Source: Giardia intestinalis (lineage: Eukaryota). Taken from it: DNA of 64,000 nt. This document shows positions 33,061-51,031 of the stretch, piece after piece (within the stretch, counting starts at the first letter, position 1; every line of letters begins with the position of its first letter). The notes under the pieces were generated by a model that saw only the letters and a program-made list of their open reading frames with translations, was not told the DNA's origin and did not search any database. The stretch lies in the NCBI GenBank assembly GCA_000002435.2, contig CM018790.1; one strand, written 5' to 3'. Position numbers and translations under genes: made by a program.

Positions 33061-33339
33061 GCGGTTTTTTAATCCTTTGTGGTGTTCGCTCTGTATCAGC
33101 TTGCAGCATCGTTCTGTTAGAATGTCTTCTTGTAGACACTGGTTAGACTGTTGAACACTTTGACAGTTGGTGGATAATAGCCAGAGGTATAACTCAGGAA
33201 GCACTGCATCGTTCTAAATTGTGGGGTGATGCATCTGTTGACAGAATAGTATAAAACAATCCGCTTTGCATCGACTTACTCTTGTTCCACTAGGGTTGGT
33301 TCGCCAACTTTTGCCCGAGTAAATCCCTCACGCAGGCGT

Positions 33340-33755
33340 CACGCTAAGAACTTCCTCGCTTGTTCACCATCCGAAGCCAGGGAATCGAGGTTCGGACGTC
33401 ATACCATTCTGATGACAAAAGAAGAACCTCATGCTTCCTCCTCCAAGATGAGTGTAGGTGCAACGGAGAGCTTGAAGCCAGTGATGGCACTAATTCCTCG
33501 CCACGCTGGGCCGACGCTGGCCAGGATAATCGCCCGCTTGTCGAGATGGACCCACACGTGACCTATGTGAATCCCTCGACGGGTGGGTCGGAGAGGCCCT
33601 TGAGGGAATGCTTGGTTCGGATAAAAGTGGGTAGCGCTTCTGCCTGCCCATAACTGGTTGGAGGAAGGAACCCTAGAGGCACCGCGAGGAGCGGCAGCTT
33701 CCAGGGGAGGCGGGCATAGGAGTTCTTCCGCCGGAATCGAGGGCATCCGATCTTC
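33340..33755. repeat. Small inverted element, copy A. The core of about 245 bp (33513-33755) is near-identical to 40201-40443, and a diverged extension runs to about 33340
   Basis: The reverse complement of 33513-33755 matches 40201-40443 (verified over the blocks shown, e.g. tcgagatggacccacacgtgacctatgtgaatccctcgacgggtgggtcggagagg vs cctctccgacccacccgtcgagggattcacataggtcacgtgtgggtccatctcga). Beyond the core, 33340-33512 aligns to 40444-40616 with scattered mismatches and indels. Confidence 0.8.
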
Positions 33756-34157
33756 GGATTCTGGACTCTGCCTGGGAGCAAGGGGCCTGCCCTCGCTTGC
33801 CTCAACTGCCATTAAACTCTGATCTTACCCAGTGTACCGAAGCAAAATAAGGATGTCTGAGCAATTCCCACAAGCCACCAAACGTCCTCAGAAGCAAACA
33901 AGCCACGGAAACACGTTTTCTCTATATGGTTGGTTCTGGTGGCGCACTACCTGGACTGCTCTCCTCGCATCGATGCAGCTCGTCAAGAGCGAACACGGAA
34001 TATCGGGTGCGCCGTCCCCGGCCATGACGGTGTCAACGGCACTGTGCAGAGCACGCTCGGGGGCAGGGGAGCGGCCACCCCTGCTCCCGGTTGCAGGCTG
34101 GCTGGCGAAGTATACGAGGCGCACCCGCTTGTCAGGCAGCTGCACCACTAGTGACGC

Positions 34158-34172
34158 GTTTACTATCTAAGT
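34158..34172 (-). promoter_or_regulatory. Extended VSP polyadenylation signal ACTTAGATAGTAAAC (consensus ACTYAGRTAGTRAAY)
   Basis: The reverse complement of 34158-34172 reads ACTTAGATAGTAAAC, starting 2 nt after the VSP TAG stop. It contains the Giardia poly(A) core AGTRAAY. Confidence 0.8.
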
Positions 34173-34174
34173 AC

Positions 34175-36085
34175 CTACGCCTTTCCTCTACAAATAAACC
34201 ACCAGCAGAGGAAGCCGACGAGGCCCCCTACAACAACAATCACAGCAACGGAGATGCCTGCAATGGCGCCAGTGGAGAGCCCGCTCTTGTTCGTGCTTCC
34301 ACCAGTGCCACTGCCACTGCTGTCATCGTTCTTGACATAGCAAGTAACAGAGCCGCCATTGCCACCAGTTGGAGGGGCACAGCTTATGCAGTTCTCTACA
34401 CCAGTGATTGCGTTGGCACTAGCTCCGTCGCCTGCTGTGCACCTAAAGCACTTATTAGTAGAAAGATAATATCCAGAAAGGCAGGAAGAACAGGTCTGAG
34501 AACCGACGTTACCAGTACACTTCAAACAACCATCAGGGCATGTAGGACAGGCTTGTCCTTTGGGATCTGCTCCACTTGCTACGCACATAGTACACTTTCC
34601 GCCTACGGATAACGTGCATACAGAGTTGCCGGGGACCTTATTTGTATTATAGCATCCGCCCGATAACAGAGCGTAGTTTGCCCCACACTCAGTGCATTTC
34701 CCGCCACTTGCCTTACATCCGGAGGCATCCCTCGCTGTGCTGGCCACCTTAGTGCAAACGCCGTCGACTGGGGCGTACCCATCCTCGCACTGATCGCAGT
34801 ACTTCGAGCCTCCGACGTTCAGTGAGCAGCCGTCGGCCTTGCAGTGGGCCATAAAGTCTCCCGTGCACTCTTTTATGCACGTTCCTGCGTCACCAGACGA
34901 CCGACTCAGCACATACCCCGGATAGCAGGCCGTGCACGACGTTTCTGCGTTAGTACTACAGCTTGCGCATGTATTGTGACAGGAAGCGCAAATGCCGGTA
35001 CTGTCACGATTATCGGGATATGTGCCGGCAGGGCACTCCTCCAGACATGCATCATTAAGGGGGCTCAGTCTTTTGGTCTCACACCCAGAGCACGTAACCA
35101 TTGGACCTGCTCTTGCAGACGTTGCCTTGAGAGAGCATTTTGCACAATCCTCTATGCCACCATTGGCAGTATCGCTGCACTTAGCACACACCTTCTTGCC
35201 TTGTGCATCGGCTGTGGGGAAGAATCCATCCTTACACTCCTCTGCACTGACACAAGAGGCTGTCCCCGATTCTGTCTTCAGATACTTATCTGCCTGGCAC
35301 TCAGTGCACGTTGCAGGGCCGGCACTCTGTGGCTTAGTACACTTGGCGCATCCAGCGACGCCCTTCCAAGCACCAGATCCCTGAGTAGCATCTCCGCACG
35401 ATATGCAAGGGCCCTCGCTCCCCTCTGTTGCTAAGAAGTACGTCTCTGCCGTGCACGACTTGCACTTGCTGACTGTCCCGTCGGTGCAGGTCAGGCAGTT
35501 ATCTGCACATGCTGTACATGTCTTTCCTTTACTATTATCTACAAAGTATCCGCTCTCGCATGCTGTGCACGTGGCAGCCTTGGCGTTAGCATCGGCTGCT
35601 ACGTCAGGCGTGTCACACTGAGTGCAATGCGGCACGCCCTTATACTTGTGGTTGTTTTTAGCTGGTACTTCCTCCTCACTTCCGCACGGTATAGCAGACT
35701 GATGTGCATTATCTCTATCAGCATCGGGTGGCAGGAAGTATCCTTGCGCGGCTTGTGTGCACACTCCAGCAGCTGCTTGTGTACACGCTGCATTGCCAGG
35801 TTTAGTATCCTTTGAATAGCATCCTCCTTTGTACATGAAGGAGCTTCCCGTACACGTGGTGCACTTTCCTTCTGCCTTTGCATTACACACAGCGTTGTCT
35901 GTTGTGCACTTGCCGTCCGTCGGGGCAGACTCCGACCCACTATCATTGCATTGCGAGCAGTAGCTCACTCCCCCAATGGTGGCCCCGCATGTCTTGCAGG
36001 TCTCGGGACCGCCACCGGAGACGGGTGTGCACTCCTCTGTCGCCAGTTGAAGCGTGAGGCCGATCAGCAAAAATGCGTAGAACAT
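34175..36085 (-). CDS. Variant-specific surface protein (VSP), about 636 aa from the first ATG
   Basis: N-terminal signal peptide MFYAFLLIGLTLQLA, then many CXXC motifs (CTTC, CTAC, CTEC, CAKC, CSGC...), GGCY motifs (YKGGCYSKD, SGGCYNTN), a C-terminal TM helix, and the invariant tail CRGKA. The stop is followed by the canonical VSP poly(A) motif. The track start at 36313 is TTG; the first ATG is at 36085. Confidence 0.9.
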   Translation of the reverse strand: MFYAFLLIGLTLQLATEECTPVSGGGPETCKTCGATIGGVSYCSQCNDSGSESAPTDGKCTTDNAVCNAKAEGKCTTCTGSSFMYKGGCYSKDTKPGNAACTQAAAGVCTQAAQGYFLPPDADRDNAHQSAIPCGSEEEVPAKNNHKYKGVPHCTQCDTPDVAADANAKAATCTACESGYFVDNSKGKTCTACADNCLTCTDGTVSKCKSCTAETYFLATEGSEGPCISCGDATQGSGAWKGVAGCAKCTKPQSAGPATCTECQADKYLKTESGTASCVSAEECKDGFFPTADAQGKKVCAKCSDTANGGIEDCAKCSLKATSARAGPMVTCSGCETKRLSPLNDACLEECPAGTYPDNRDSTGICASCHNTCASCSTNAETSCTACYPGYVLSRSSGDAGTCIKECTGDFMAHCKADGCSLNVGGSKYCDQCEDGYAPVDGVCTKVASTARDASGCKASGGKCTECGANYALLSGGCYNTNKVPGNSVCTLSVGGKCTMCVASGADPKGQACPTCPDGCLKCTGNVGSQTCSSCLSGYYLSTNKCFRCTAGDGASANAITGVENCISCAPPTGGNGGSVTCYVKNDDSSGSGTGGSTNKSGLSTGAIAGISVAVIVVVGGLVGFLCWWFICRGKA

Positions 36086-39000
36086 TGTGGCTCGACGCTC
36101 TGTCACACAGAGATATAGCAGCTCCGTTCGCCAGTCCGCCCCTTCATGGCATCTGTCTGTGCTGCATGACGCACTGGCAGGGAAGGCCCTCCACAGGCCT
36201 GCGGAGAAGTGGAGTCGTACCGATTCCACTCTTATGACCTGCCGCTCCGAGCTTCTGTGACTGGCCGGCTGTGAGATGGATTGATCAGTATAGGTCTCCC
36301 CCTTATGCTGCAAGGCGTACCATAGTAGTGGCTACACGGCGGCCATGCTTCGCTCTTCGCTGTGATGTGAGGGTTTCCTGGCGACCAACTCCCCTGCTGT
36401 GCCAGTCACAATGTCTGCCAAGGAACTGCCTAGGGATCTCCTGAATGCTTGAACAGACCCAATGGAGGCCGGGCCATGAGACGTCCAGCAGCCCCGAGCC
36501 ACGGGTCACCAGCGCATGCCTCGAACACTGTTCCCCCGAGATTCCACTGTTGAAGCCCGGCAGGAGCGATGCCCCGTGGAGGATGGCTGCGTTCTATCGC
36601 GACCCACTGCGACTGTCCCCCTGCTCAGGGGCGCCGTCTGTCATACGACTCAACCCGCTTGCACCATAGACTATTGATGAGCCTGTCCCCTGTCGACTCC
36701 CACGCACTGAAGGGCCCTACTGACCACTTTAGAGACCGTCCCTCGCCGGCCGCAGACCCATCTAGGAGCCAGTGCCTGTCCATCCCCATCTGGGATAGTC
36801 CCACTGGAGTGGACAGCCTTCGGGCACGCAATGGTGTCCCAGCACCCTCAGAGCGGTGGTCCCGCCCACTTGACCGGCTCCAGCCAACCATACCATAGCG
36901 TCTCTCACATAAGGAGTATCCCGCACACTGGAGAAAAGGCAACGTCGAGGCGGCCAGCGCTGTCGGGCCGCCCGCTCCCTGCTGGCAAAGAATAGCGGGA
37001 CCGTAAACAACCTGGGCTATCACTACTCGGCTCAGAGTGCTCAGCTCCTGGAATCGTGGCCGAGAGTGATCATTTGGGCAAGGCACGCAGCGTTGCTATC
37101 GGAGGCACTCTTGTGTTCGAGAGCCTTCCAATAAGACCGGTCCTGCCTGGTGCCAAAGAATGGGCTGTATGCTGGTCAACTGAACTGAAGATTGATGGTA
37201 GTGTTTATGGACAGCAAGCTAGGAAAGTCAGTGGCCTCTAGATTTCATGTCACATTGAGCAACCCACTATACGAAAGCTTGATATCTCAAATAATCAGCT
37301 GACGTTACGAAGTGCTTGGTAGTTTGATAACCATGTGGAGGTGAGACAGTGAGAGAGTCGTAAAGCAGCTTGCAGGCAGAGACGCTGAGGTGCGCAGCGA
37401 TCTGGTCTATCAAGTCTCTGTTGAGTGCACAAGGAATGCTCGAATGTAGTAAACTGGCCGGCCCTCTTTATAGCAGGCAAGGGCTTCTATCTGCACTGTA
37501 CAGTTATGGGATATACCCTTGCAGAATTAGTAAAAACACCCATATAAACAGCACTGAGTGCTTGGGATTTACGCCGGTGAGCAAGAGCTGATTGTGCCAC
37601 CTTGGTTGGCAAGTACTTCAAACTGTGCAACGCATACACCAATCCTTTGGTCAAAGTGAAGGCGACAGTCCTCATGGCACTATAAAATCAACCATGTGAA
37701 TCGTGGGAGCCTCATCTGGTGGCTCGTCTATTGCGGAAAGACGCAATTGAGGAACTGCTGGATAGCAAACATGCTGCCTGTTATCAGGTTACACAGTATA
37801 CCTCTACGACAGAGTCTTTATGCACACGTCGACAAATAGCCGAACACCTTTAAGATTCATAACAAGCAAACACTCAAGAAAGCCTGTGGTATTTCAAATG
37901 CACAAACTCAAAAATCAACCTCCAACCTATCTGTAGACACAATGCTTCAGAGTCGGAGGCCAAAAAGACACCGTGTGCGTCCTTGCTGCAATTCGGATCT
38001 GTAATTAGCATCTCTAGCGCTAGCCTTGCCCCACTAATCTGCTGGTCATTCCTACCTTCTCTGTGCGAACCAGCTCTCCAGGAACCACCGTGCACGGATA
38101 GCCTCCTGTACGCCCAAATAGCATCATTCTTTGTTGAGGTGTGTCACGAAGGGCTAGGTGTTATAAGGTGAGTGCGACTAGAGGCAAAGCCTTCCTGCAG
38201 GCCCGTCTAACACCAGCAATGGGCATCCAAACATGTGCACGGGCCCTTGGCGAGTGCACTGTAATCTAGGCCGGTCAGCACACTAGGCTTGTGACACTTG
38301 GTGCATAGATTTCTGTTTTTAGTTATAAGTCTGGGGATTGTGTCTTACCTTGAAAGGCAGTAGAGTGCTTTGCAGGGCCTTTCTGGGTATACAGCTATCG
38401 CTATAGCTAATGGATGAACAGCAATAAAGACTCTATGCTTAAACAGAGGCATTTCTGATGCAACCAAGTGCTGTCTTCCATCAATAGCAGACAGCTCAAA
38501 CAGGCGGTGTCCACTCTATCATCAGACCTTATGCGGCGTGTGTGCATTATTAGAGAAGCTTCTGTAATCTCTGCTCAGTCTGTTGGGCAGGTACAGCCCA
38601 AGTGTAACGAAGACGGTGGTGGAGGCAGTCACCGGCGCAAGGCAATGAGGCGTATGGCTCAGCACAACAATTCGTTTTTAGAAGCCCTAGGCCTCCAAGA
38701 CGAGCATAGCATACTGTCTGCACATGCAATTCCTCTTTCACGCTGCTTACTCCTATGAGCAGTTGCGATACATCGCATGCCAGAAAACGGCGTAGAGGGT
38801 TCCCAGACTATTGGACCAGTAGACCGAACTGACAAGGGTAGCTAGCCATGCATGCAGAAGCTCTGTCCTGGGGGCAGTGGGTGCGACGGCTGCCTCAAGT
38901 TTTTTAGTATCCAGACACAGGCTAATTACGTGTATATCGAGGGGTCGTTCTGGCTGATCTGGCTATGGCTGCACAGACGATGCAGAGCAATAACCCGGTC

Positions 39001-40200
39001 ACCACCTCAGTTCCCTGTCTGTTCTGAGCTCCAAGTCACGACCAACCAGCGAAGAATGATCTTCTTCGCCCTACATAGAGCTCTCCTAGACAGATATGCT
39101 CCCAGGTGTGGCTAGCCAACATTAGGGGCTACTCGTAGCCGGCGTTCCTCAATACTTGCCCAGTCTCACTTACATCTGCATTCACTTTGGACGCCAGAGG
39201 ATGCTGGGCTAAACATGTATTTACAAAGGGCACATATGATGACAGAAGGACGTAGTCATCTCCTGAACTTCCCTAACTTAGTTGGGCAACGTGCCCTTCA
39301 GAATGCACGATGGAGCTCACTGGTAGATGCATCGTCACAGCTTCGATGTCTTAGAATGCTTGATTGGCCGACAGTGATAACGCTCCTCTTCTGCCATATA
39401 ATCTGCCGCTTCCTGTCTAAGGGTATTGATCACTAACTATGTATAGCACTTTTCTTGGTTGCCATTATAGGTGTACCTCTTGATACTTGGGTTACCTGTT
39501 CTTCGCTGCACTGTTCTATTATCCCCTGCGGCAGGAGCTATATCGAAATCCTTGGTCGGCATATCTTGGGATCACCTCCCGCGCTCATATCGTCGTAGAG
39601 CACTGGTCCTCAGGTCGTCCCCAGCCATTGTGAGAGCCACACTATATGACCAAATGCGGGGCTTATTCCGCTCCGGATGCCTTGCCTGCCGGCGTGCCCT
39701 CTGGCTTGCCGACGCCTGTGGATGGAGACGCGTCGCTGCAGCCACACAGTTATTTACGCATCTTAGAAGCGCCCGTACTGGACAGCGTAGGGTTTTGCTT
39801 ATTTAGTACAGCTCCGTGATGCAGAAGACTCTAAAAGGAGGCCTGGGAACCCAGTCCAGTCCGGAGGGGAGGCATGCCGCGGAGTTATCCATTTCTCATT
39901 GAGGTCTAAAACGTCAGCGGACCACGGGAGGTCTCTCGCCACAGCAGCCGGCTGGCATTCTGTCACCTTATTACGGATATGAAGGCTGCCCACATGAGTC
40001 AACGCCGAAGCAAGACGTCTGGTCTGACAGAACTGCTGGGCAGAGCAGGTGGCAGAGCTGATATATTGAGAGATTTACTCTCCGTTTCACCGGGGCGGGG
40101 TTGCTACCTGCTATCTGAGTGGTCTCCCATGCGAGCCACCGCCTCCCTGGGCAAGCGGGTATCTCTCGCCCTTGCATCGGCTGAGATCCGAACCTAGAGT

Positions 40201-40616
40201 CCAAGATCGGATGCCCTCGATTCCGGCGGAAGAACTCCTATGCCCGCCTCCCCTGGAAGCTGCCGCTCCTCGCGGTGCCTCTAGGGTTCCTTCCTCCAAC
40301 CAGTTATGGGCAGGCAGAAGCGCTACCCACTTTTATCCGAACCAAGCATTCCCTCAAGGGCCTCTCCGACCCACCCGTCGAGGGATTCACATAGGTCACG
40401 TGTGGGTCCATCTCGACAAGCGGGCGATTATCCTGGCCAGCGTCAGCTTAGCATGATGAGAGGTTGGCGCCATCACCAGCTACATGCCTTCAGTCGCCTT
40501 CTCTATCGCCTTGAGAGAAGAAGCATCCTCCTTTGTCGTCAAAATGGGACAACATCCGAACCTCGATTCCCAGACTTCGGATGGTGAACAGGCGAAGGAG
40601 CGCCCAATATGGCACC
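40201..40616. repeat. Small inverted element, copy B (core 40201-40443, diverged extension to about 40616)
   Basis: Same evidence as copy A; coordinate sum is about 73956. It lies 590 bp inside the spacer from the inner end of the left arm, so the pair brackets the left arm and not the whole palindrome. Confidence 0.8.
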
Positions 40617-43600
40617 TGCGTGAGGGATTTACTCGGATAGCAGCTACGGCGTCTGGCTGCTTGTTTCTCCTACAAGCCTAGTAATTGACCAGGGTTGCTT
40701 TACAGTCGTGGAGACACTGCTGCGTCTCTCTAAGTCTTTTAGAGAGACGATCCAGTTTAGTGTAGAAGGAATGAGCGCGACCCAGCCCGTGCCTACGTGT
40801 TGCTCTACGGTTTGCTGCTCCTGCTTGCTGTCTTCGTTTCCCTGAAAGCAGCCACGGTGGCTCTCTGGAGCAATCGCTTGCATCCATCCACAACCCTAGG
40901 CGTTACGACTTGGAAGGCCATGTCATCGCATAAGCTCTATGGAAGGCATTTACTAGCCATGGTAGATGGAGGTCGCTGCCTCTGAGGCCCTGATGCATGC
41001 TGAGCCTAAAAGACGCTGACTCCACTGGCTGCAGGAGCCGCCACTTACTGTGACAGCTTGAAGTAGCACCACTTCGAGGACAGAGGATATCCACAGCTCG
41101 AGAGGACGCGGCGGCAGAGAACAGACTCAGGCATAGCCACAAACAGACCCACCAATCCGGATGGATGAGGGCGGACACCTAATTGGCAAGCCGTTGGCTA
41201 GTCTATGTAGAGGCGCATCCTCTAACAGCAGGGTCTGGCACACGAAGTCTAAGGGCGACCATGGGTACACAGCAGACGGGCAGAAGCCTGCTTCGTAGTG
41301 TGTGGAGGCTTTGATGAGGCAATCCTAAGTTTAATGAAGGCCGGGACCGGTAGCTCTAACAGACAGTTCCCCAGCTTTGGAATACTTGCGTCACCATAGA
41401 GTCAATACAGTGAGTTGTCTGTAGTAACAAGTCTGTGGAGATAAGAGCAGACTCCTATCAAACTAACTAGATACTAATGGATCCTAGCGTGAACTCGCAG
41501 TATAGGGACTTGCAGAAGGCACCGCGTTCTACTCATCTGAGTAAGACAGCCAACTGAGTGAACCCATAATGCAAAGACCACGAGGCCAAGGGCTCCTCCA
41601 TAGCCTAAAAGCTAACATCACAAGAGTCACACTGGCCGCGGAGTGCTTTCCGATCCCCTGAGGCTTAGCGGCATGGCTTCGTTCCCTAGTACGGCCAGAC
41701 AGACTTGAGACACGAGATACTCTGTCTGCTGCAAAGCACACCTTCTGGCAGCGACTCAGGTCTATCGGGTAACTCTCGCATAGAGGAGGCAGATGGGTCC
41801 GAAGCGCCATCGCTCGCCTGATAACTCTGAGTCATGGAAGAGGAAGCTGTTTATGAGAATGCACCCCTAGTGTGTAGATCCGCGTTTTCATGCGAAGTGA
41901 GAAGACGCTCCTGGATTGATCTGTCATGCCTCCATCTGCTCTAGCAAAATGTAACGCAACGCATGCACTATTGATCTATGTCGCCATGACAGCCATAGTT
42001 AACTAGCCAACGAGACAATCGCTAGAGGAACCCTTGGACACTTATGAGCAGAGGCGCAGCCTGAGAGCAGTCATCTGGCCGCTAAGTGATGGAGGAGCAG
42101 ACACAGCGCTGCTCCGTGCAATCACACTCTCTCACTTTAGTGGCTATGTGGGCAGCCCCGGTCTTGTGAGGTCTGCGGATAAGCTGCTTCATCCCATAAA
42201 GCATCCAGAATTACTACAGGTGACCCCTGCAAAGTCTTACTGCGGGAGGTCATGCTTCACTAAAGACGTGGCTCTGGAAACACATTGACTGATGGGAGCT
42301 CCCCTCTGGCGTTCTTAGGGGCGGTGTCTGTCTACAATAGCTCCTACACCCACTGCCTGTCTATGGCCCAACTCTGCCGTATTAGACCCCTGTCTCCACT
42401 GAATGGCTGATTCGAGGGTGATGCTGGTTACCAGGATGATACCTTACATTGACTGCTAAGAGCTGTCTTTGCATATATTACGCTGCTTAGTGTTGCACTC
42501 AAACGAAGCTTGCTATTGCTCCGCAACTATTGTGGATTGGAAGAACAGTTAGCATTCTCAGTAGTTCATGTGGTAATTGGAAGCCAGGGAAGTCTAAGTT
42601 GAGTGGGAAAGCTTGAAGAGGGAGTAGCAGCTCTTGTACTCCTCTGCTGAGTGATGCAGAGAACTGGCTCGTTTCTTAGCGTCGATAGTTCTTCAGAATG
42701 CACGTTTCTTTGTTTAAGACTTGCATGCTTCGGATTGCCCTCTGTTGCCAGCAGAGCAGCCACCGCCCTGTGTGTCTCCTTCAGACATATGCCCATCTAT
42801 AGTGGCGTCTCCTGTCTTTTCTCTGGAGAGGCATAACAGTCCCAATCCAGACACCTTGCTCTCAGCACACACCTCGTATCTATCAGAGGTCAAGTGTTCG
42901 TCAGCCATATCCCATAAGCATCAGTACTGTGCCACTATGTTACTTCCTGTCCCTCTTGAGGGGCGCGCTCTGACCATCCCAGTGTCTCTATGATAGGAGA
43001 GCTGTGGATCCAGAGGCGGTCATGGCTTTCTGGCCCTCTCTGCTGTCCAGTAGACTGCAAGAGTGCCCTTCGGGGGTCGGTCCCCTAACCTTCTGTTCTC
43101 TCGAGGAAGTGGTCCTTGGATAGCGCCACTTGGATGATTCCCGAAGCCTCACTGCACGGGTGCTGCTTTACAAACACTCCTGGCTGAAGCTGGACCCGAA
43201 TCCTCCTAGAGTTACCTGCTGGCCCAGTCCTTGATTGCTATCAGCAGAGGTCTCAACCTTCCAAGGACATCTCGGGGACAATACGTTTGGCCCACGTCAG
43301 CGCCACTTCCTGGCAGGGGCATGCAGAAGATCTGCTCCCTCTTGTAGATCCATCATTGGTATCGAGAGTACTGCGCCTGTCACTCTCGCTGGAAGTGTCG
43401 ATAGATGGTGCCCCGTATCTATCCCATTGAAGAGTTGGAGGTCCGCCAGGACAGCGAAGATGATCCCATCAGGGCTGTGATCATATACCCGCCATTATAG
43501 CAACCATAGTGTAGATAAGACAACTGTCTGGGCCCTGCAACTCCCGGCGTAGGACGCCAGGAGGCATAGCTAATTCAAGCTAATAAAGGCCACCCCTGTC

Positions 43601-46600
43601 ATAGCAGGCTCAGAAAGTAGAGAATGAGTGACGTACCTGGTGTCCATCCACGCACGCATGCAGCCTGGAAGCCCTGCTCAAAGCACCGAGGCCTGCAGGG
43701 GTGTGGCATCCGAACAGGCCCGACAGTTATGGTTGTTTCTGAAAACAGCCAACATGACTGGATGAGGACATAAGAACTCACGGAGACCCTCACAGTCTTG
43801 ATGTCTGGGAGAACGTGGGGGCTGACCACTCCAAGATTGTCCATCTCATGAGCTGGCTTTCGACAGTAGGCATAACAAAAAAGTGACCTCCAGTCATACA
43901 CAATCTCATGCCAGCCCATCGCAGGATAGACCATCATTGCCTGACCTACCAATCCGTCCATTTCTGTGATAGATGTAACAGTACTTCATCATCGGCCACC
44001 TTGCGGCTACACAGTCAGGGTATTATCCGTGACATTGCTTGCTGATGCTCTGCATAGGGCCCTGTCCTCGTAGAGTGACAGATGAGCCTCTCTGTATATG
44101 TGGATCTAATGATATGGCTCCTCTGGGACTTTCCACCTCTGCTTCTGTCTAGTATCTCACATCAATATGAAGTGGCCAGTGGCTGTTATTGGATCTTGCA
44201 GCATAACTATTACACATTTGTGTGCCCATCAAGACTACCATATAGGGTCACACAAGCCGAGAGCTCTGTCAGGCAGTTATTGGACTCGATGTCAAGATGG
44301 CAGGAGGACAACACTCCCAAGGGTCGCTGAAGCATGAAGCGTTATATAGATCGTATAGCACACCAGCTGCAGCACAACGGCAGAGGGCATACCTAGATGT
44401 AGATAGCGCCTACAGCAAGCGGCATGCTGTCGTTGTCGGTACAACGGGCATAGTGGCTACTGGACCCACGCTTTAGTAGCCTCGATTGGAGCAATTGCAC
44501 AGCGAAGGAGCAGGGCGTAGGGGCATGGGCACCAACCGGTCGAGCAACGTGTACATGTACGAGCACAGTTATGAGTCTCGCCTACACTGTTGGGTGGTGC
44601 TCTGCTTTGATGCTGACTCAGCGGACCAACCCTCACATCTGTGACAGAAGGTAGGACATCGTGCTGATCATGCGGTGAGAGGCCTTCATGCGGGCCTTTA
44701 ACTAGCCTAGGCAGCACTTAGAAGCGGCCAACCCTCTCGTACCACGTCTCCTCTCTAAATAGGACTGAATGCATCCATGGTACCCTTCTAGGGTCTTAGT
44801 ATCATGGAGCCCGTGCCAGGCAGGAAGGTTCTATATTACATGGCATGCGAGCTGCTAGGATGTGTAAACACTTGCGTGGTTGTAGCGACGCGTCCTCATC
44901 AGCAAGTGTCAGAGTACATCGGTGGACAGGTGCATATTAAGTCAGGCACTCTGTGTGCGATCATGCATCACAGCTCTCGTAACGGGCCACAGGCAGCCTG
45001 GGGACCAGTGCTCTACGACGATATGAGCGCGGGAGGTGATCCCAAGATATGCCGACCAAGGATTTCGATATAGCTCCTGCCGCAGGGGATAATAGAACAG
45101 TGCAGCGAAGAACAGGTAACCCAAGTATCAAGAGGTACACCTATAATGGCAACCAAGAAAAGTGCTATACATAGTTAGTGATCAATACCCTTAGACAGGA
45201 AGCGGCAGATTATATGGCAGAAGAGGAGCGTTATCACTGTCGGCCAATCAAGCATTCTAAGACATCGAAGCTGTGACGATGCATCTACCAGTGAGCTCCA
45301 TCGTGCATTCTGAAGGGCACGTTGCCCAACTAAGTTAGGGAAGTTCAGGAGATGACTACGTCCTTCTGTCATCATATGTGCCCTTTGTAAATACATGTTT
45401 AGCCCAGCATCCTCTGGCGTCCAAAGTGAATGCAGATGTAAGTGAGACTGGGCAAGTATTGAGGAACGCCGGCTACGAGTAGCCCCTAATGTTGGCTAGC
45501 CACACCTGGGAGCATATCTGTCTAGGAGAGCTCTATGTAGGGCGAAGAAGATCATTCTTCGCTGGTTGGTCGTGACTTGGAGCTCAGAACAGACAGGGAA
45601 CTGAGGTGGTGACCGGGTTATTGCTCTGCATCGTCTGTGCAGCCATAGCCAGATCAGCCAGAACGACCCCTCGATATACACGTAATTAGCCTGTGTCTGG
45701 ATACTAAAAAACTTGAGGCAGCCGTCGCACCCACTGCCCCCAGGACAGAGCTTCTGCATGCATGGCTAGCTACCCTTGTCAGTTCGGTCTACTGGTCCAA
45801 TAGTCTGGGAACCCTCTACGCCGTTTTCTGGCATGCGATGTATCGCAACTGCTCATAGGAGTAAGCAGCGTGAAAGAGGAATTGCATGTGCAGACAGTAT
45901 GCTATGCTCGTCTTGGAGGCCTAGGGCTTCTAAAAACGAATTGTTGTGCTGAGCCATACGCCTCATTGCCTTGCGCCGGTGACTGCCTCCACCACCGTCT
46001 TCGTTACACTTGGGCTGTACCTGCCCAACAGACTGAGCAGAGATTACAGAAGCTTCTCTAATAATGCACACACGCCGCATAAGGTCTGATGATAGAGTGG
46101 ACACCGCCTGTTTGAGCTGTCTGCTATTGATGGAAGACAGCACTTGGTTGCATCAGAAATGCCTCTGTTTAAGCATAGAGTCTTTATTGCTGTTCATCCA
46201 TTAGCTATAGCGATAGCTGTATACCCAGAAAGGCCCTGCAAAGCACTCTACTGCCTTTCAAGGTAAGACACAATCCCCAGACTTATAACTAAAAACAGAA
46301 ATCTATGCACCAAGTGTCACAAGCCTAGTGTGCTGACCGGCCTAGATTACAGTGCACTCGCCAAGGGCCCGTGCACATGTTTGGATGCCCATTGCTGGTG
46401 TTAGACGGGCCTGCAGGAAGGCTTTGCCTCTAGTCGCACTCACCTTATAACACCTAGCCCTTCGTGACACACCTCAACAAAGAATGATGCTATTTGGGCG
46501 TACAGGAGGCTATCCGTGCACGGTGGTTCCTGGAGAGCTGGTTCGCACAGAGAAGGTAGGAATGACCAGCAGATTAGTGGGGCAAGGCTAGCGCTAGAGA

Positions 46601-48525
46601 TGCTAATTACAGATCCGAATTGCAGCAAGGACGCACACGGTGTCTTTTTGGCCTCCGACTCTGAAGCATTGTGTCTACAGATAGGTTGGAGGTTGATTTT
46701 TGAGTTTGTGCATTTGAAATACCACAGGCTTTCTTGAGTGTTTGCTTGTTATGAATCTTAAAGGTGTTCGGCTATTTGTCGACGTGTGCATAAAGACTCT
46801 GTCGTAGAGGTATACTGTGTAACCTGATAACAGGCAGCATGTTTGCTATCCAGCAGTTCCTCAATTGCGTCTTTCCGCAATAGACGAGCCACCAGATGAG
46901 GCTCCCACGATTCACATGGTTGATTTTATAGTGCCATGAGGACTGTCGCCTTCACTTTGACCAAAGGATTGGTGTATGCGTTGCACAGTTTGAAGTACTT
47001 GCCAACCAAGGTGGCACAATCAGCTCTTGCTCACCGGCGTAAATCCCAAGCACTCAGTGCTGTTTATATGGGTGTTTTTACTAATTCTGCAAGGGTATAT
47101 CCCATAACTGTACAGTGCAGATAGAAGCCCTTGCCTGCTATAAAGAGGGCCGGCCAGTTTACTACATTCGAGCATTCCTTGTGCACTCAACAGAGACTTG
47201 ATAGACCAGATCGCTGCGCACCTCAGCGTCTCTGCCTGCAAGCTGCTTTACGACTCTCTCACTGTCTCACCTCCACATGGTTATCAAACTACCAAGCACT
47301 TCGTAACGTCAGCTGATTATTTGAGATATCAAGCTTTCGTATAGTGGGTTGCTCAATGTGACATGAAATCTAGAGGCCACTGACTTTCCTAGCTTGCTGT
47401 CCATAAACACTACCATCAATCTTCAGTTCAGTTGACCAGCATACAGCCCATTCTTTGGCACCAGGCAGGACCGGTCTTATTGGAAGGCTCTCGAACACAA
47501 GAGTGCCTCCGATAGCAACGCTGCGTGCCTTGCCCAAATGATCACTCTCGGCCACGATTCCAGGAGCTGAGCACTCTGAGCCGAGTAGTGATAGCCCAGG
47601 TTGTTTACGGTCCCGCTATTCTTTGCCAGCAGGGAGCGGGCGGCCCGACAGCGCTGGCCGCCTCGACGTTGCCTTTTCTCCAGTGTGCGGGATACTCCTT
47701 ATGTGAGAGACGCTATGGTATGGTTGGCTGGAGCCGGTCAAGTGGGCGGGACCACCGCTCTGAGGGTGCTGGGACACCATTGCGTGCCCGAAGGCTGTCC
47801 ACTCCAGTGGGACTATCCCAGATGGGGATGGACAGGCACTGGCTCCTAGATGGGTCTGCGGCCGGCGAGGGACGGTCTCTAAAGTGGTCAGTAGGGCCCT
47901 TCAGTGCGTGGGAGTCGACAGGGGACAGGCTCATCAATAGTCTATGGTGCAAGCGGGTTGAGTCGTATGACAGACGGCGCCCCTGAGCAGGGGGACAGTC
48001 GCAGTGGGTCGCGATAGAACGCAGCCATCCTCCACGGGGCATCGCTCCTGCCGGGCTTCAACAGTGGAATCTCGGGGGAACAGTGTTCGAGGCATGCGCT
48101 GGTGACCCGTGGCTCGGGGCTGCTGGACGTCTCATGGCCCGGCCTCCATTGGGTCTGTTCAAGCATTCAGGAGATCCCTAGGCAGTTCCTTGGCAGACAT
48201 TGTGACTGGCACAGCAGGGGAGTTGGTCGCCAGGAAACCCTCACATCACAGCGAAGAGCGAAGCATGGCCGCCGTGTAGCCACTACTATGGTACGCCTTG
48301 CAGCATAAGGGGGAGACCTATACTGATCAATCCATCTCACAGCCGGCCAGTCACAGAAGCTCGGAGCGGCAGGTCATAAGAGTGGAATCGGTACGACTCC
48401 ACTTCTCCGCAGGCCTGTGGAGGGCCTTCCCTGCCAGTGCGTCATGCAGCACAGACAGATGCCATGAAGGGGCGGACTGGCGAACGGAGCTGCTATATCT
48501 CTGTGTGACAGAGCGTCGAGCCACA

Positions 48526-50436
48526 ATGTTCTACGCATTTTTGCTGATCGGCCTCACGCTTCAACTGGCGACAGAGGAGTGCACACCCGTCTCCGGTGGC
48601 GGTCCCGAGACCTGCAAGACATGCGGGGCCACCATTGGGGGAGTGAGCTACTGCTCGCAATGCAATGATAGTGGGTCGGAGTCTGCCCCGACGGACGGCA
48701 AGTGCACAACAGACAACGCTGTGTGTAATGCAAAGGCAGAAGGAAAGTGCACCACGTGTACGGGAAGCTCCTTCATGTACAAAGGAGGATGCTATTCAAA
48801 GGATACTAAACCTGGCAATGCAGCGTGTACACAAGCAGCTGCTGGAGTGTGCACACAAGCCGCGCAAGGATACTTCCTGCCACCCGATGCTGATAGAGAT
48901 AATGCACATCAGTCTGCTATACCGTGCGGAAGTGAGGAGGAAGTACCAGCTAAAAACAACCACAAGTATAAGGGCGTGCCGCATTGCACTCAGTGTGACA
49001 CGCCTGACGTAGCAGCCGATGCTAACGCCAAGGCTGCCACGTGCACAGCATGCGAGAGCGGATACTTTGTAGATAATAGTAAAGGAAAGACATGTACAGC
49101 ATGTGCAGATAACTGCCTGACCTGCACCGACGGGACAGTCAGCAAGTGCAAGTCGTGCACGGCAGAGACGTACTTCTTAGCAACAGAGGGGAGCGAGGGC
49201 CCTTGCATATCGTGCGGAGATGCTACTCAGGGATCTGGTGCTTGGAAGGGCGTCGCTGGATGCGCCAAGTGTACTAAGCCACAGAGTGCCGGCCCTGCAA
49301 CGTGCACTGAGTGCCAGGCAGATAAGTATCTGAAGACAGAATCGGGGACAGCCTCTTGTGTCAGTGCAGAGGAGTGTAAGGATGGATTCTTCCCCACAGC
49401 CGATGCACAAGGCAAGAAGGTGTGTGCTAAGTGCAGCGATACTGCCAATGGTGGCATAGAGGATTGTGCAAAATGCTCTCTCAAGGCAACGTCTGCAAGA
49501 GCAGGTCCAATGGTTACGTGCTCTGGGTGTGAGACCAAAAGACTGAGCCCCCTTAATGATGCATGTCTGGAGGAGTGCCCTGCCGGCACATATCCCGATA
49601 ATCGTGACAGTACCGGCATTTGCGCTTCCTGTCACAATACATGCGCAAGCTGTAGTACTAACGCAGAAACGTCGTGCACGGCCTGCTATCCGGGGTATGT
49701 GCTGAGTCGGTCGTCTGGTGACGCAGGAACGTGCATAAAAGAGTGCACGGGAGACTTTATGGCCCACTGCAAGGCCGACGGCTGCTCACTGAACGTCGGA
49801 GGCTCGAAGTACTGCGATCAGTGCGAGGATGGGTACGCCCCAGTCGACGGCGTTTGCACTAAGGTGGCCAGCACAGCGAGGGATGCCTCCGGATGTAAGG
49901 CAAGTGGCGGGAAATGCACTGAGTGTGGGGCAAACTACGCTCTGTTATCGGGCGGATGCTATAATACAAATAAGGTCCCCGGCAACTCTGTATGCACGTT
50001 ATCCGTAGGCGGAAAGTGTACTATGTGCGTAGCAAGTGGAGCAGATCCCAAAGGACAAGCCTGTCCTACATGCCCTGATGGTTGTTTGAAGTGTACTGGT
50101 AACGTCGGTTCTCAGACCTGTTCTTCCTGCCTTTCTGGATATTATCTTTCTACTAATAAGTGCTTTAGGTGCACAGCAGGCGACGGAGCTAGTGCCAACG
50201 CAATCACTGGTGTAGAGAACTGCATAAGCTGTGCCCCTCCAACTGGTGGCAATGGCGGCTCTGTTACTTGCTATGTCAAGAACGATGACAGCAGTGGCAG
50301 TGGCACTGGTGGAAGCACGAACAAGAGCGGGCTCTCCACTGGCGCCATTGCAGGCATCTCCGTTGCTGTGATTGTTGTTGTAGGGGGCCTCGTCGGCTTC
50401 CTCTGCTGGTGGTTTATTTGTAGAGGAAAGGCGTAG
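48526..50436 (+). CDS. Variant-specific surface protein (VSP), an identical copy of the VSP at 34175..36085 in inverted orientation
   Basis: Its 712-aa track ORF is identical to the left-arm track ORF. ATG at 48526, CRGKA-stop at 50422-50436, poly(A) motif at 50439-50453. Confidence 0.9.
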   Translation: MFYAFLLIGLTLQLATEECTPVSGGGPETCKTCGATIGGVSYCSQCNDSGSESAPTDGKCTTDNAVCNAKAEGKCTTCTGSSFMYKGGCYSKDTKPGNAACTQAAAGVCTQAAQGYFLPPDADRDNAHQSAIPCGSEEEVPAKNNHKYKGVPHCTQCDTPDVAADANAKAATCTACESGYFVDNSKGKTCTACADNCLTCTDGTVSKCKSCTAETYFLATEGSEGPCISCGDATQGSGAWKGVAGCAKCTKPQSAGPATCTECQADKYLKTESGTASCVSAEECKDGFFPTADAQGKKVCAKCSDTANGGIEDCAKCSLKATSARAGPMVTCSGCETKRLSPLNDACLEECPAGTYPDNRDSTGICASCHNTCASCSTNAETSCTACYPGYVLSRSSGDAGTCIKECTGDFMAHCKADGCSLNVGGSKYCDQCEDGYAPVDGVCTKVASTARDASGCKASGGKCTECGANYALLSGGCYNTNKVPGNSVCTLSVGGKCTMCVASGADPKGQACPTCPDGCLKCTGNVGSQTCSSCLSGYYLSTNKCFRCTAGDGASANAITGVENCISCAPPTGGNGGSVTCYVKNDDSSGSGTGGSTNKSGLSTGAIAGISVAVIVVVGGLVGFLCWWFICRGKA

Positions 50437-50438
50437 GT

Positions 50439-50453
50439 ACTTAGATAGTAAAC
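50439..50453 (+). promoter_or_regulatory. Extended VSP polyadenylation signal ACTTAGATAGTAAAC
   Basis: It follows the TAG stop at 50434-50436 directly and is identical to the left-arm copy. Confidence 0.8.
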
Positions 50454-51031
50454 GCGTCACTAGTGGTGCAGCTGCCTGACAAGCGGGTGCGCCTCGTATA
50501 CTTCGCCAGCCAGCCTGCAACCGGGAGCAGGGGTGGCCGCTCCCCTGCCCCCGAGCGTGCTCTGCACAGTGCCGTTGACACCGTCATGGCCGGGGACGGC
50601 GCACCCGATATTCCGTGTTCGCTCTTGACGAGCTGCATCGATGCGAGGAGGGGTGCTTGATGTGGGCAGCTTTGGTACTGTCCATGTGATAGGTGGCTAT
50701 CCAAGACTCAGAGTGGGAAGCTCACGGAGGCCACTGGGTCGCGCTGGCCACCATTTCCAGACGCTCACACCTAGATGTCATTAGGCACTACCGGGTGCTC
50801 AGAGACGCTCACTCCATCTTCATCATCATGGACCGCTGAGATCGGTGCCTCAAGATGTGATTGCCGATTGAGCAAGAACCGGTAACCCTACCGATACAGT
50901 GCTCTCCATCATGGAGCAGTGAGTGTCTACAATTATATATTGACCACTACTGTGATAGCGCGGAGCTTCCGGGGTCAACCACAAGTAAAGGGTAAGCTTT
51001 CTTAATGGAATTGCCACTCACAAGACAGAGA

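What the first reader, a model, noticed from the sequence alone, without database searches (positions are those of the whole stretch)
33961..50650. Perfect 5.65-kb inverted duplication carrying two identical head-to-head VSP genes around a 5.4-kb unique spacer
- Both arms (33961-39609 and 45002-50650) appear identical at the nucleotide level: every six-frame ORF has an exact mirror partner.
- The boundaries are sharp. The outer boundary matches through 33961/50650 and is unrelated one base beyond. The inner boundary shows one mismatch, then degeneration.
- Each arm contains a complete VSP gene (signal peptide, CXXC/GGCY ectodomain, TM, CRGKA, canonical poly(A) motif) plus about 3.5 kb of ORF-free upstream DNA.
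- The two VSPs are divergently oriented and share kilobases of identical 5' flank. Giardia promoters are normally only tens of bp long.
- Zero divergence over 5.6 kb implies either a very recent duplication, ongoing gene conversion/homogenisation between the arms, or an assembly artefact.
- VSP genes are known to occur in pairs or arrays, but a perfect palindrome of this size with long shared non-coding arms is worth documenting. It bears on how the antigenic-variation repertoire is generated and homogenised.
Basis: seen in the sequence. Interest (0 to 1): 0.75.

Follow-up and report, generated by a model that had tools for sequence, protein, structure and literature searches.

The report
Known giant inverted Giardia VSP pair
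Two identical, outward-facing copies of one Giardia surface-antigen (VSP) gene sit in a perfect 5.65-kb inverted repeat; the pair is already published, but comparison with other isolates indicates that it is old and kept identical by gene conversion, not newly duplicated.

Summary
Window 33961-39609 and 45002-50650 are reverse complements with 0 mismatches in 5,649 nt. Each arm carries a complete 636-aa VSP gene facing outward, and 12,440 nt separate the two start codons.

The window is Giardia intestinalis WB-C6 chromosome 2. This exact pair (GL50803_50359/134710, '<- ->', 636 aa, 12,440 bp, nothing between) is already listed in Xu et al. 2020 (Table 2) and in a 2022 preprint (S4 table). It belongs to the known class of identical inverted VSP pairs (Adam et al. 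2010) and is that class's size outlier.

New findings here:
- Arm homology continues inward for about 400 nt at about 60% identity.
- Assemblage E (P15) and a paralogous locus read straight through the right outer junction, so the right copy is parental.
- Isolate DHA2 (AII) has the left outer junction at the identical nucleotide.
- Both copies therefore predate the AI/AII split (1.6-3.4% flank divergence) yet show 0 differences. This argues for homogenisation by arm-to-arm gene conversion, not recent duplication.
- A 242-nt perfect tract inside a second, 86%-identical inverted repeat bracketing the left arm shows the same footprint.
- No gene, domain remnant, RNA family or tandem repeat was detected in the 12.4 kb.

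The inner junctions and spacer orientation rest on the PacBio assembly alone.

The parts
33961..39609 (-). Left arm of the perfect inverted repeat (the derived copy). It carries VSP GL50803_0050359 plus 3.5 kb of non-coding upstream DNA and 214 nt of 3' flank.
   Evidence: 0/5,649 mismatches to the reverse complement of 45002-50650. The outer junction GAGGAG|AGCAGTCC is a novel junction relative to P15 and to the paralogous locus, and DHA2 shares it at the identical nucleotide.
45002..50650 (+). Right arm of the perfect inverted repeat (the parental copy). It carries VSP GL50803_00134710.
   Evidence: P15 (L021) and the DHA2 paralogous copy (L012) are collinear across 50650 into right-flank sequence.
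34175..36085 (-). VSP coding sequence, left copy (636 aa, ends CRGKA).
   Evidence: Accessions KAE8302464/5 and XP_001708597.2.
48526..50436 (+). VSP coding sequence, right copy, identical to the left copy (vsp167 of Adam 2010).
39615..40012 (.). Degenerate inner extension of the left arm. About 95 nt have no detectable similarity, then about 300 nt are collinear with the right-arm extension at about 60% identity.
   Evidence: The local alignment covers 39711-40012 with 189/314 identical positions, z = 25, and lies within about 9 nt of the palindrome register.
44603..44996 (.). Degenerate inner extension of the right arm.
40013..44602 (.). Unique spacer core. No gene, domain remnant, RNA family or tandem repeat was detected. 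It contains repeat A.
   Evidence: The S4 table of the 2022 preprint lists 'None/None' for this interval.
33315..33762 (.). Repeat A', just outside the left arm, an inverted copy of A. It contains a 242-nt tract (33513-33754) that is perfectly identical to A.
40196..40636 (.). Repeat A, inside the spacer. Together with A' it brackets the left arm. The perfect tract is 40203-40444.
50651..52474 (.). Right flank, shared at 97.5-98.9% identity in AI-type contigs and about 96% in DHA2 with the paralogous GL50803_111806 locus on another chromosome. The shared segment ends inside gene 112059.

Best explanation
This is an old interrupted palindrome at a VSP locus, kept sequence-identical by intrachromosomal (arm-to-arm) gene conversion. 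A segment of about 6 kb (VSP 134710, its 214-nt 3' flank and about 3.9 kb of upstream non-coding DNA, the right copy) was duplicated in inverted orientation about 4.6 kb upstream. This produced the left copy (VSP 50359) with a new junction at 33960|33961. That happened before sub-assemblages AI and AII separated. Since then, non-allelic homologous recombination between the inverted arms has repeatedly, or at least once after the AI/AII split, copied one arm onto the other across 5.65 kb. The tract stops where an approximately 95-nt heterology (39615-39710 / 44901-44996) interrupts homology. The innermost ~300 nt beyond it escaped conversion and drifted to about 60% identity. The practical result is two identical copies of one antigen gene with identical 3.5-kb upstream regions: redundancy or dosage, not added antigenic diversity. 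There is also a substrate for inversion of the spacer, and, through the A'/A repeat, of the whole left arm. What is shown directly: arm identity, the boundaries, the degenerate extension, the polarity (right copy parental), the presence of both outer junctions outside the WB 2020 assembly, and the conversion footprint in A'/A. What is inferred: that gene conversion is the homogenising process, that the heterology block sets the tract end, and any inversion dynamics.
For: (1) There are 0/5,649 differences between the arms. (2) DHA2 (AII) contig L011 crosses the left outer junction at the identical nucleotide, so the left copy predates the AI/AII split. (3) P15 (assemblage E) has a VSP 3' end in the same position and orientation as the right copy and is collinear across 50650. 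(4) The paralogous 111806 locus, present in AI-type contigs and in DHA2, also carries right-flank-type sequence, and in DHA2 it continues collinearly across the position of 50650 into a VSP 3' end. The right junction therefore also predates the split. (5) WB-DHA2 divergence is 1.61% over 9,785 nt of flank, 3.4% in the intergenic part and 2.8% in the arm's 3' flank. Un-homogenised arms would be expected to carry roughly 90-190 differences, and 0 are observed. (6) Collinear homology at about 60% identity directly inward of the perfect zone (z = 25) shows that the duplication is far older than the perfect identity suggests. (7) There is an independent footprint in the same locus. In the A'/A repeat, WB-A' equals WB-A in a 242-nt tract (0/237) while DHA2-A' differs from both by 6.2%. 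In the adjacent 204 columns, WB-A' versus WB-A differs by 29.9% while WB-A' versus DHA2-A' differs by 2.0%. (8) Adam et al. 2010 found identical VSP genes only as inverted pairs. That is what is expected if inverted, but not direct, repeats can be homogenised without being deleted (my inference from general knowledge of recombination between repeats). (9) Gene conversion in AI enriched at VSP genes has been reported at population level (PMC12669663).
Against: No second isolate could be shown to hold both arms on one contig, so 'arms cluster by isolate, not by position' was not tested directly. The second DHA2 VSP fragment (L012) lies at the paralogous locus on another chromosome, not at the right arm. 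The inner junctions and the spacer are supported only by the PacBio assembly. Short-read polishing can erase small differences between near-identical repeats, so 'exactly zero' may be slightly overstated. A switch from 100% to about 60% identity within a few bases is sharper than a population of variable conversion tracts would normally give. The P15 collinearity across 50650 is modest (88 nt at 74% identity, E = 2e-7, next to 218 nt at 72%, E = 7e-27).
Confidence: 0.72

Rival explanations
1. A very recent one-step inverted duplication in the WB (AI) lineage. The arms are identical simply because there has been no time to diverge, which is the interpretation that Adam et al. 2010 favoured for identical pairs in general.
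For: Zero divergence and sharp outer boundaries. Adam 2010 proposed that such duplications are 'relatively recent'.
Against: DHA2 (AII) has the left junction at the same nucleotide. P15 and the paralogous locus carry the right junction. Both copies are therefore older than a split marked by 1.6-3.4% flank divergence. The ~60% collinear inner extension also indicates an old event.
Confidence: 0.1
2. An assembly or polishing artefact: a single VSP locus was mis-joined into a palindrome, or two slightly different arms were made identical by consensus polishing.
For: Identical repeats are classic assembly hazards. The pairs were questioned as artefacts of the earlier assembly (2022 preprint). Adam 2010 notes that the pairs terminated contigs. 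Short-read Logan contigs stop before the arms.
Against: The 2007 Sanger assembly independently placed a VSP 3' fragment (XP_001708597.1, 137 aa, identical C-terminus) on the left-flank contig and the full gene beside 112059. DHA2 independently has the left junction. The 5.65-kb arms are well within PacBio read length, and Xu et al. report resolving duplications of up to 20 kb and checking the assembly against optical maps. The 2022 preprint re-confirmed 20 pairs.
Confidence: 0.05
3. A mobile VSP cassette: the left arm is a transposed unit bounded by the 448-bp inverted repeats A'/A acting as terminal inverted repeats, or it was moved by a retroelement as proposed for other head-to-head pairs.
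For: A' and A bracket the left arm in inverted orientation. Xu 2020 found RT remnants between 4 of 7 divergent pairs. A copy of the VSP plus its right flank also exists on another chromosome.
Against: No transposase, RT or any other Pfam domain remnant was found in six frames of 36086-45000. The S4 table of the preprint lists 'None' for this interval. A'/A are separated from the arm ends by about 200 nt of unrelated sequence on each side. The right arm is not flanked by A-like sequence. The copy on the other chromosome carries right-flank DNA and part of gene 112059, which is the pattern of a segmental duplication and not of an element with defined ends.
Confidence: 0.05
4. Replication-based fold-back (ODIRA/MMBIR-like) duplication primed at a pre-existing diverged inverted repeat (39615-40012 / 44603-44996). 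In this reading the perfect arms are a young product and the degenerate inner segments are the older priming repeat.
For: Perfect identity begins where an older, diverged inverted repeat ends. This is the architecture that fold-back models predict (my knowledge of those models, not a test).
Against: This model needs a young event, but both outer junctions predate the AI/AII split, so homogenisation is still required afterwards. About 95 nt next to the boundary show no similarity at all, and 60% identity is too low for homology-driven switching. No triplication or other ODIRA hallmark is present in the window.
Confidence: 0.08

Closest known systems
Identical inverted VSP gene pairs of Giardia intestinalis WB (vsp1267 prototype; Adam et al. 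2010, PMC2996952; Xu et al. 2020, PMC7000408; Rodriguez-Walker et al. 2022 preprint)
   Same: Two identical VSP ORFs in inverted orientation. The flanks are identical up to an abrupt divergence point, and a non-coding interval lies between them. The pair caused contig breaks in the 2007 assembly. This very pair is row 'Chr 2, 50359/134710, <- ->, 636 aa, 12440' of Xu Table 2.
   Different: It is the size outlier. The ATGs are 12,440 bp apart, against 2,513-6,264 bp for the other 18 pairs. 5' flank identity runs 3,529 nt, against 158-729 nt in Adam's head-to-head pairs. There is no RT remnant, VSP-like region or gene between the copies. Adam 2010 listed it as a single gene, vsp167.
Gene-conversion-maintained palindromes, such as the ampliconic palindromes of the human Y chromosome and plastid inverted repeats (my general knowledge)
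   Same: Long, near-identical inverted arms around a unique spacer, carrying genes. Arm identity is far higher than expected from the age of the structure. Homogenisation stops at the arm boundaries.
   Different: The scale is kilobases, not tens to thousands of kilobases. The host is a tetraploid, binucleate, possibly asexual protist. Conservation of the full palindrome in a second lineage was shown only for the two outer junctions, not for complete arms.
Segmental gene conversion and recombination among VSP genes (Adam 2010; G. muris genome, PMC7641422; AI population genomics, PMC12669663)
   Same: Non-reciprocal transfer between VSP-associated sequences. VSP genes are enriched among converted genes.
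   Different: Those reports concern mosaic diversification between different VSP genes or between alleles. Here conversion would do the opposite, keeping two copies and 3.5 kb of non-coding DNA identical.

Membership tests
Giardia variant-specific surface protein (VSP) | Match to the Pfam VSP family above its curated cut-off | tested here: met
   PF03302, E = 5.6e-83, 279.5 bits against a cut-off of 31.4
Giardia variant-specific surface protein (VSP) | Cys-rich ectodomain with many CXXC motifs and GGCY | tested here: met
   72 Cys (11.3%) and 25 CXXC. Two GGCY motifs (KGGCYSKD, SGGCYNTN) are visible in the translation.
Giardia variant-specific surface protein (VSP) | Conserved C-terminal transmembrane segment followed by CRGKA | tested here: met
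   The protein ends ...AIAGISVAVIVVVGGLVGFLCWWFICRGKA.
Giardia variant-specific surface protein (VSP) | N-terminal signal peptide | tested here: inconclusive
   The hydrophobic N-terminus MFYAFLLIGLTLQLATEEC was read from the sequence, but no predictor was run. Xu et al. kept as VSPs only genes with a SignalP-predicted peptide, and they list this pair.
Giardia variant-specific surface protein (VSP) | Initiator element at the ATG and the extended poly(A) motif after the stop | tested here: met
   CAATGTT lies at the start, and TACTTAGATAGTAAACGCGT begins 5 nt after the stop. The same motif is listed for both genes in the preprint supplement.
Identical inverted VSP pair (Adam 2010 / Xu 2020) | Two identical VSP ORFs in head-to-head or tail-to-tail orientation | tested here: met
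   The CDS copies are identical and oriented <- ->. The pair is listed in Xu Table 2.
Identical inverted VSP pair (Adam 2010 / Xu 2020) | Flanks identical up to an abrupt divergence point | tested here: met
   The outer divergence point is at 33960/50651, 214 nt past the stop. The inner one is at 39610-39615 / 44996-45001.
Identical inverted VSP pair (Adam 2010 / Xu 2020) | About 2-4 kb between the ORFs and flank identity of only 139-729 bp (the typical values, not a strict definition) | tested here: not met
   12,440 nt between the ATGs and 3,529 nt of identical 5' flank
Identical inverted VSP pair (Adam 2010 / Xu 2020) | Retrotransposon remnant between head-to-head copies (seen in 4 of 7 such pairs) | tested here: not met
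   No Pfam hit at E <= 1 in six frames of 36086-45000. The S4 table lists 'None'.
Gene-conversion-maintained palindrome | Arm-to-arm identity higher than expected from the age of the duplication | tested here: met
   Both outer junctions predate the AI/AII split. Flank divergence is 1.6-3.4%, while the arms differ at 0/5,649 positions.
Gene-conversion-maintained palindrome | In several lineages, the two arms of one genome are more alike than orthologous arms of different genomes | not testable with these tools
   Only the left-arm end of DHA2 and a paralogous copy on another chromosome could be fetched. No second genome with both arms was accessible.
Gene-conversion-maintained palindrome | Discrete conversion tracts visible as mosaic identity | tested here: met
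   In the A'/A repeat, a 242-nt perfect tract lies next to sequence that is 29.9% diverged, and the orthologue/paralogue distances are reversed between the two parts.
Transposon with terminal inverted repeats | Inverted repeats at the very ends of the moved unit, together with a transposase or RT | tested here: not met
   A'/A lie about 200 nt away from the arm ends. No domain remnant was found.

The most novel reading that the evidence does not exclude
The identical inverted VSP pairs of Giardia are not recent duplicates. They are long-lived palindromes whose arms are continually homogenised by intrachromosomal gene conversion, in the manner of Y-chromosome palindromes. This would explain why identical VSP genes are found only as inverted pairs. 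This locus, the largest pair, would be the first case where the age (older than the AI/AII split, possibly older than the A/E split), the polarity and the conversion boundary can be read from sequence. Recombination at A'/A and between the arms would additionally make the spacer and the left arm invertible within a clone.
Probability: 0.55. Interest if true: 0.5.

Novelty: already known. Interest (0 to 1): 0.3.

Why it matters
The structure itself adds nothing to the catalogue, because it is already in two published lists. What may matter is the reading of it. If VSP pairs are old and actively homogenised, part of the Giardia antigen repertoire is under concerted evolution rather than diversification. 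'Identical pair' would then not mean 'recent duplication', and dating of VSP family expansion from pair identity would be wrong. It would also give a concrete, sequence-defined locus at which mitotic gene conversion in a putatively asexual tetraploid can be measured. Finally, inverted repeats of 5.65 kb at 100% identity, and a 242-nt perfect tract in A'/A, predict within-clone inversions that could confound structural-variant calls around VSP genes.

Tried and rejected
- **Hidden VSP pseudogene (nested older palindrome) in the 12.4 kb:** tblastn of the VSP against the window found only the two genes. Rejected.
- **RT, kinase or other domain remnant:** six-frame X-masked translations of 36086-45000 against Pfam at E <= 1 gave 0 hits.
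- **The extra 301-aa kinase gene of P15 as the origin of the spacer:** tblastn hit only the NEK kinase genes elsewhere in the window. Rejected.
- **Structured RNA:** no Rfam family reached its gathering score anywhere in the window.
- **Tandem repeats:** none in 33000-51500.
- **Interval ORFs as previously annotated proteins with paralogues:** 10 ATG-ORFs are absent from the protein collection.
- **Retrieving the WB 2020 chromosome or the WB paralogous locus beyond gene 111806:** exact look-ups of the VSP, 112059, the farnesyltransferase and P0043 found nothing. All contigs of the 111806 locus stop 142-316 nt past the gene.
- **Left flank in P15:** the contig ends right after the farnesyltransferase gene, so it is uninformative.
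- **Independent contigs across the inner junction:** a 42-nt arm-end sequence has no exact match in JGI metagenome contigs.
- **DHA2 contig L012 as the right arm of a DHA2 palindrome:** I first read it this way. Synteny with the myotubularin/CAF1 genes shows it is the orthologue of the 111806 locus on another chromosome, so I dropped the direct 'two arms in DHA2' argument.
- **Not done:** homology searches with ORFs of the non-coding interval, judged not worth the compute. No signal-peptide predictor was available.
Full report

Yes. Window 33961-39609 is the exact reverse complement of 45002-50650, with 0 mismatches in 5,649 nt. The repeat finder extends the arms to 33961-39614 / 44997-50650, with 5,382 nt between them. 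One base outside the outer ends the sequences are unrelated. At the inner ends there is one mismatch, four matches, then degeneration.

Each arm carries a complete VSP gene: 34175-36085 on the minus strand and 48526-50436 on the plus strand.
- The protein is 636 aa, with 72 Cys, 25 CXXC and two GGCY motifs.
- It has the conserved transmembrane segment and ends in CRGKA.
- It has a CAATGTT initiator and the TACTTAGATAGTAAACGCGT poly(A) motif.
- It matches Pfam PF03302 at E = 5.6e-83.

The genes point outward (<- ->), and 12,440 nt separate their start codons. This interval has stops throughout all six frames.

**2. Where it comes from, and what was already known**

Exact look-up identifies the window as Giardia intestinalis WB clone C6, 2020 PacBio assembly, on the 1.54-Mb chromosome. 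The two VSPs are the adjacent records KAE8302464 and KAE8302465.

Adam et al. 2010 described 14 'inverted pairs' of identical VSP genes in WB. Four are head-to-head, with 2,190-3,847 bp between the ORFs and flank identity ending abruptly 139-729 bp from the coding region. They noted that such pairs terminated contigs and that some pairs were probably missed. In their table this gene is vsp167 (GL50803_134710; 636 aa, 63.9 kDa, 72 Cys, 25 CXXC, chromosome 2), listed as a single gene.

Xu et al. 2020 list 19 pairs in the new assembly, including 'Chr 2, 50359, 134710, <- ->, 636 aa, 12440 bp' with nothing between. The S4 table of a 2022 preprint repeats this: genes in between 'None', intergenic region 'None', length 12,440.

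The finding is therefore already in the literature. It is the extreme member of the class: the other 18 pairs are 2,513-6,264 bp apart, and its 5' flank identity (3,529 nt) is about five times the largest value Adam reported.

**3. What is in the 12.4 kb?**

Nothing recognisable was found.
- No VSP pseudogene (tblastn).
- No Pfam domain at E <= 1 in any of six frames of 36086-45000.
- No Rfam family.
- No tandem repeat.
- None of ten ATG-ORFs was ever deposited as a protein.

Two structural features did emerge. First, sensitive alignment shows that arm homology does not stop at 39614/44997. After about 95 nt with no similarity, collinear homology resumes within about 9 nt of the palindrome register. 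It runs to about 40012/44603 at about 60% identity. The local score is 42 against 10.7 +/- 1.2 for dinucleotide shuffles (z = 25). A same-orientation control scores 11, at the shuffle background level. The original arms were therefore about 6.05 kb long.

Second, a 448-bp segment just outside the left arm (A', 33315-33762) recurs inverted inside the spacer (A, 40196-40636) at 86% identity, so the left arm is bracketed by an inverted repeat.

**4. Independent support for the two copies**

The 2007 Sanger assembly had a 137-aa VSP fragment (XP_001708597.1), identical to the C-terminus of this VSP. Its accession number runs consecutively with those of the left-flank genes. The full-length gene (XP_001704663.1) has an accession next to that of right-flank gene 112059. 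Both outer junctions were therefore assembled independently of PacBio.

The inner junctions and the spacer could not be checked independently. Short-read contigs stop inside A', and a metagenome scan found nothing.

**5. Polarity and age**

Contig L021 of P15 (assemblage E) is syntenic with the right flank at 87% identity over 11.7 kb. It has a VSP 3' end in the same position and orientation as the right copy. It also aligns across the right outer boundary into right-flank sequence.

A paralogous locus on another chromosome carries right-flank-type sequence. It contains GL50803_111806, a 473-aa truncated copy of gene 112059, next to myotubularin and CAF1 genes.
- In AI-type contigs it matches window 52474-50890 (98.9%) or 52474-50717 (97.5%).
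- In DHA2 it continues collinearly across the equivalent of 50650 into a VSP 3' end.

The right arm with its flank is therefore the ancestral, contiguous arrangement, and the left outer junction (GAGGAG|AGCAGTCC) is the novel one.

DHA2 (sub-assemblage AII) contig L011 crosses that novel junction at the identical nucleotide. Both junctions, and hence both copies, existed before AI and AII separated.

**6. Why this points to gene conversion**

WB and DHA2 differ by:
- 1.61% over 9,785 nt of left flank;
- 3.4% in its intergenic part;
- 2.8% in the arm's 3' flank;
- 6.4% in the VSP coding part.

Two copies that had coexisted since before that split without exchange should differ by at least a comparable amount, roughly 90-190 sites in 5,649 nt. 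They differ at none. At least one arm-wide conversion, and more likely recurrent conversion, after the AI/AII split is therefore the simplest explanation. The ~60% inner segments represent the part that escaped, beyond a ~95-nt heterology.

The same locus supplies an independent footprint. Within A'/A there is a 242-nt exact match (33513-33754 = reverse complement of 40203-40444).
- In that tract, WB-A' versus WB-A is 0/237, while DHA2-A' differs from both by 6.2%.
- In the neighbouring 204 columns, WB-A' versus WB-A differs by 29.9%, while WB-A' versus DHA2-A' differs by only 2.0%.

This reversal of paralogue and orthologue distances is the classic mark of a conversion tract.

**7. Limits**

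- I could not obtain any second genome with both arms on one contig, so concerted evolution of the arms is inferred from junction age, not seen in a tree.
- My initial reading of DHA2 contig L012 as a 'right arm' was wrong. It is the paralogous locus.
- Exact zero divergence could be slightly flattered by polishing.
- The boundary between 100% and ~60% identity is sharper than variable conversion tracts would usually give. I attribute this to the heterology block, which is an inference.
- Whether the palindrome predates the A/E split is only suggested. The unconverted inner identity (~60%) is lower than the A/E intergenic identity here (72-74%), and the P15 contig ends inside the VSP.

**8. 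Comparison with known systems**

The locus is a member, and the largest one, of the known class of identical inverted VSP pairs. It departs from the class only in size and in lacking any RT-like or VSP-like remnant between the copies.

It appears to behave like gene-conversion-maintained palindromes known from other genomes (Y-chromosome ampliconic palindromes, plastid inverted repeats; my general knowledge). The published interpretation of the pairs is recent duplication or transposition. Gene conversion enriched at VSP genes has been reported at population level in AI. I found no statement that the pairs themselves are old and homogenised.

**9. Verdict**

- The structure is already known.
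- Interest is modest (0.3). The only part that goes beyond the literature is the age and conversion argument, which needs long-read and multi-isolate confirmation.

Noticed in passing
window 50651-52474 (and the VSP 3' end from 49882); loci L012, L014, L020: The right arm's flank and the C-terminal 473 codons of gene GL50803_112059 have a paralogous copy on another chromosome (GL50803_111806, next to the myotubularin and CAF1 genes). It is 97.5-98.9% identical in AI-type contigs. Homology ends at 52474, 21 nt upstream of an internal Met that serves as the start of the truncated paralogue. In DHA2 this paralogous locus also carries a VSP 3' end.
   Followed up: partly
window 33513-33754 and 40203-40444: There is a 242-nt perfectly identical tract inside an otherwise 70-86% identical inverted repeat (A'/A) that brackets the left arm. 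Recombination here would invert the whole left arm and turn the palindrome into a direct repeat. Short-read (Logan) contigs end inside A' (33349 and 33542 for L002 and L001).
   Followed up: yes
L021:11752-13425 (P15) versus window about 50919-50995: P15 has an extra 301-aa protein-kinase gene between the VSP and the 112059 orthologue. It is absent from WB at this position, so there is an indel in the right flank between assemblages A and E.
   Followed up: partly
window 34175-34768 versus L011:1-594: Between WB and DHA2 the VSP coding region differs by 6.4%, against 0.9-1.5% for the three neighbouring housekeeping-type genes. The DHA2 left copy is closer to the DHA2 paralogous copy on the other chromosome (2.2%) than to its positional orthologue in WB (5.4%).
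   Followed up: partly
proteins P0003 (KAE8304883, WB 4.0-Mb chromosome) and P0002 (ESU39621, DHA2): Proteins annotated as a high cysteine membrane protein (P0003) or a VSP (P0002) share at least about 90% identity with the C-terminal half of this VSP. They end in GRRKA or GRRKT instead of CRGKA, so they look like partial VSP duplicates that have lost the defining tail.
   Followed up: no
window 36000-37000 versus 37000-38500: The non-coding upstream part of each arm changes composition sharply, from about 60% G+C next to the VSP start to about 47% G+C further in. This suggests it is built from segments of different origin. No homologue was found for either segment.
   Followed up: no
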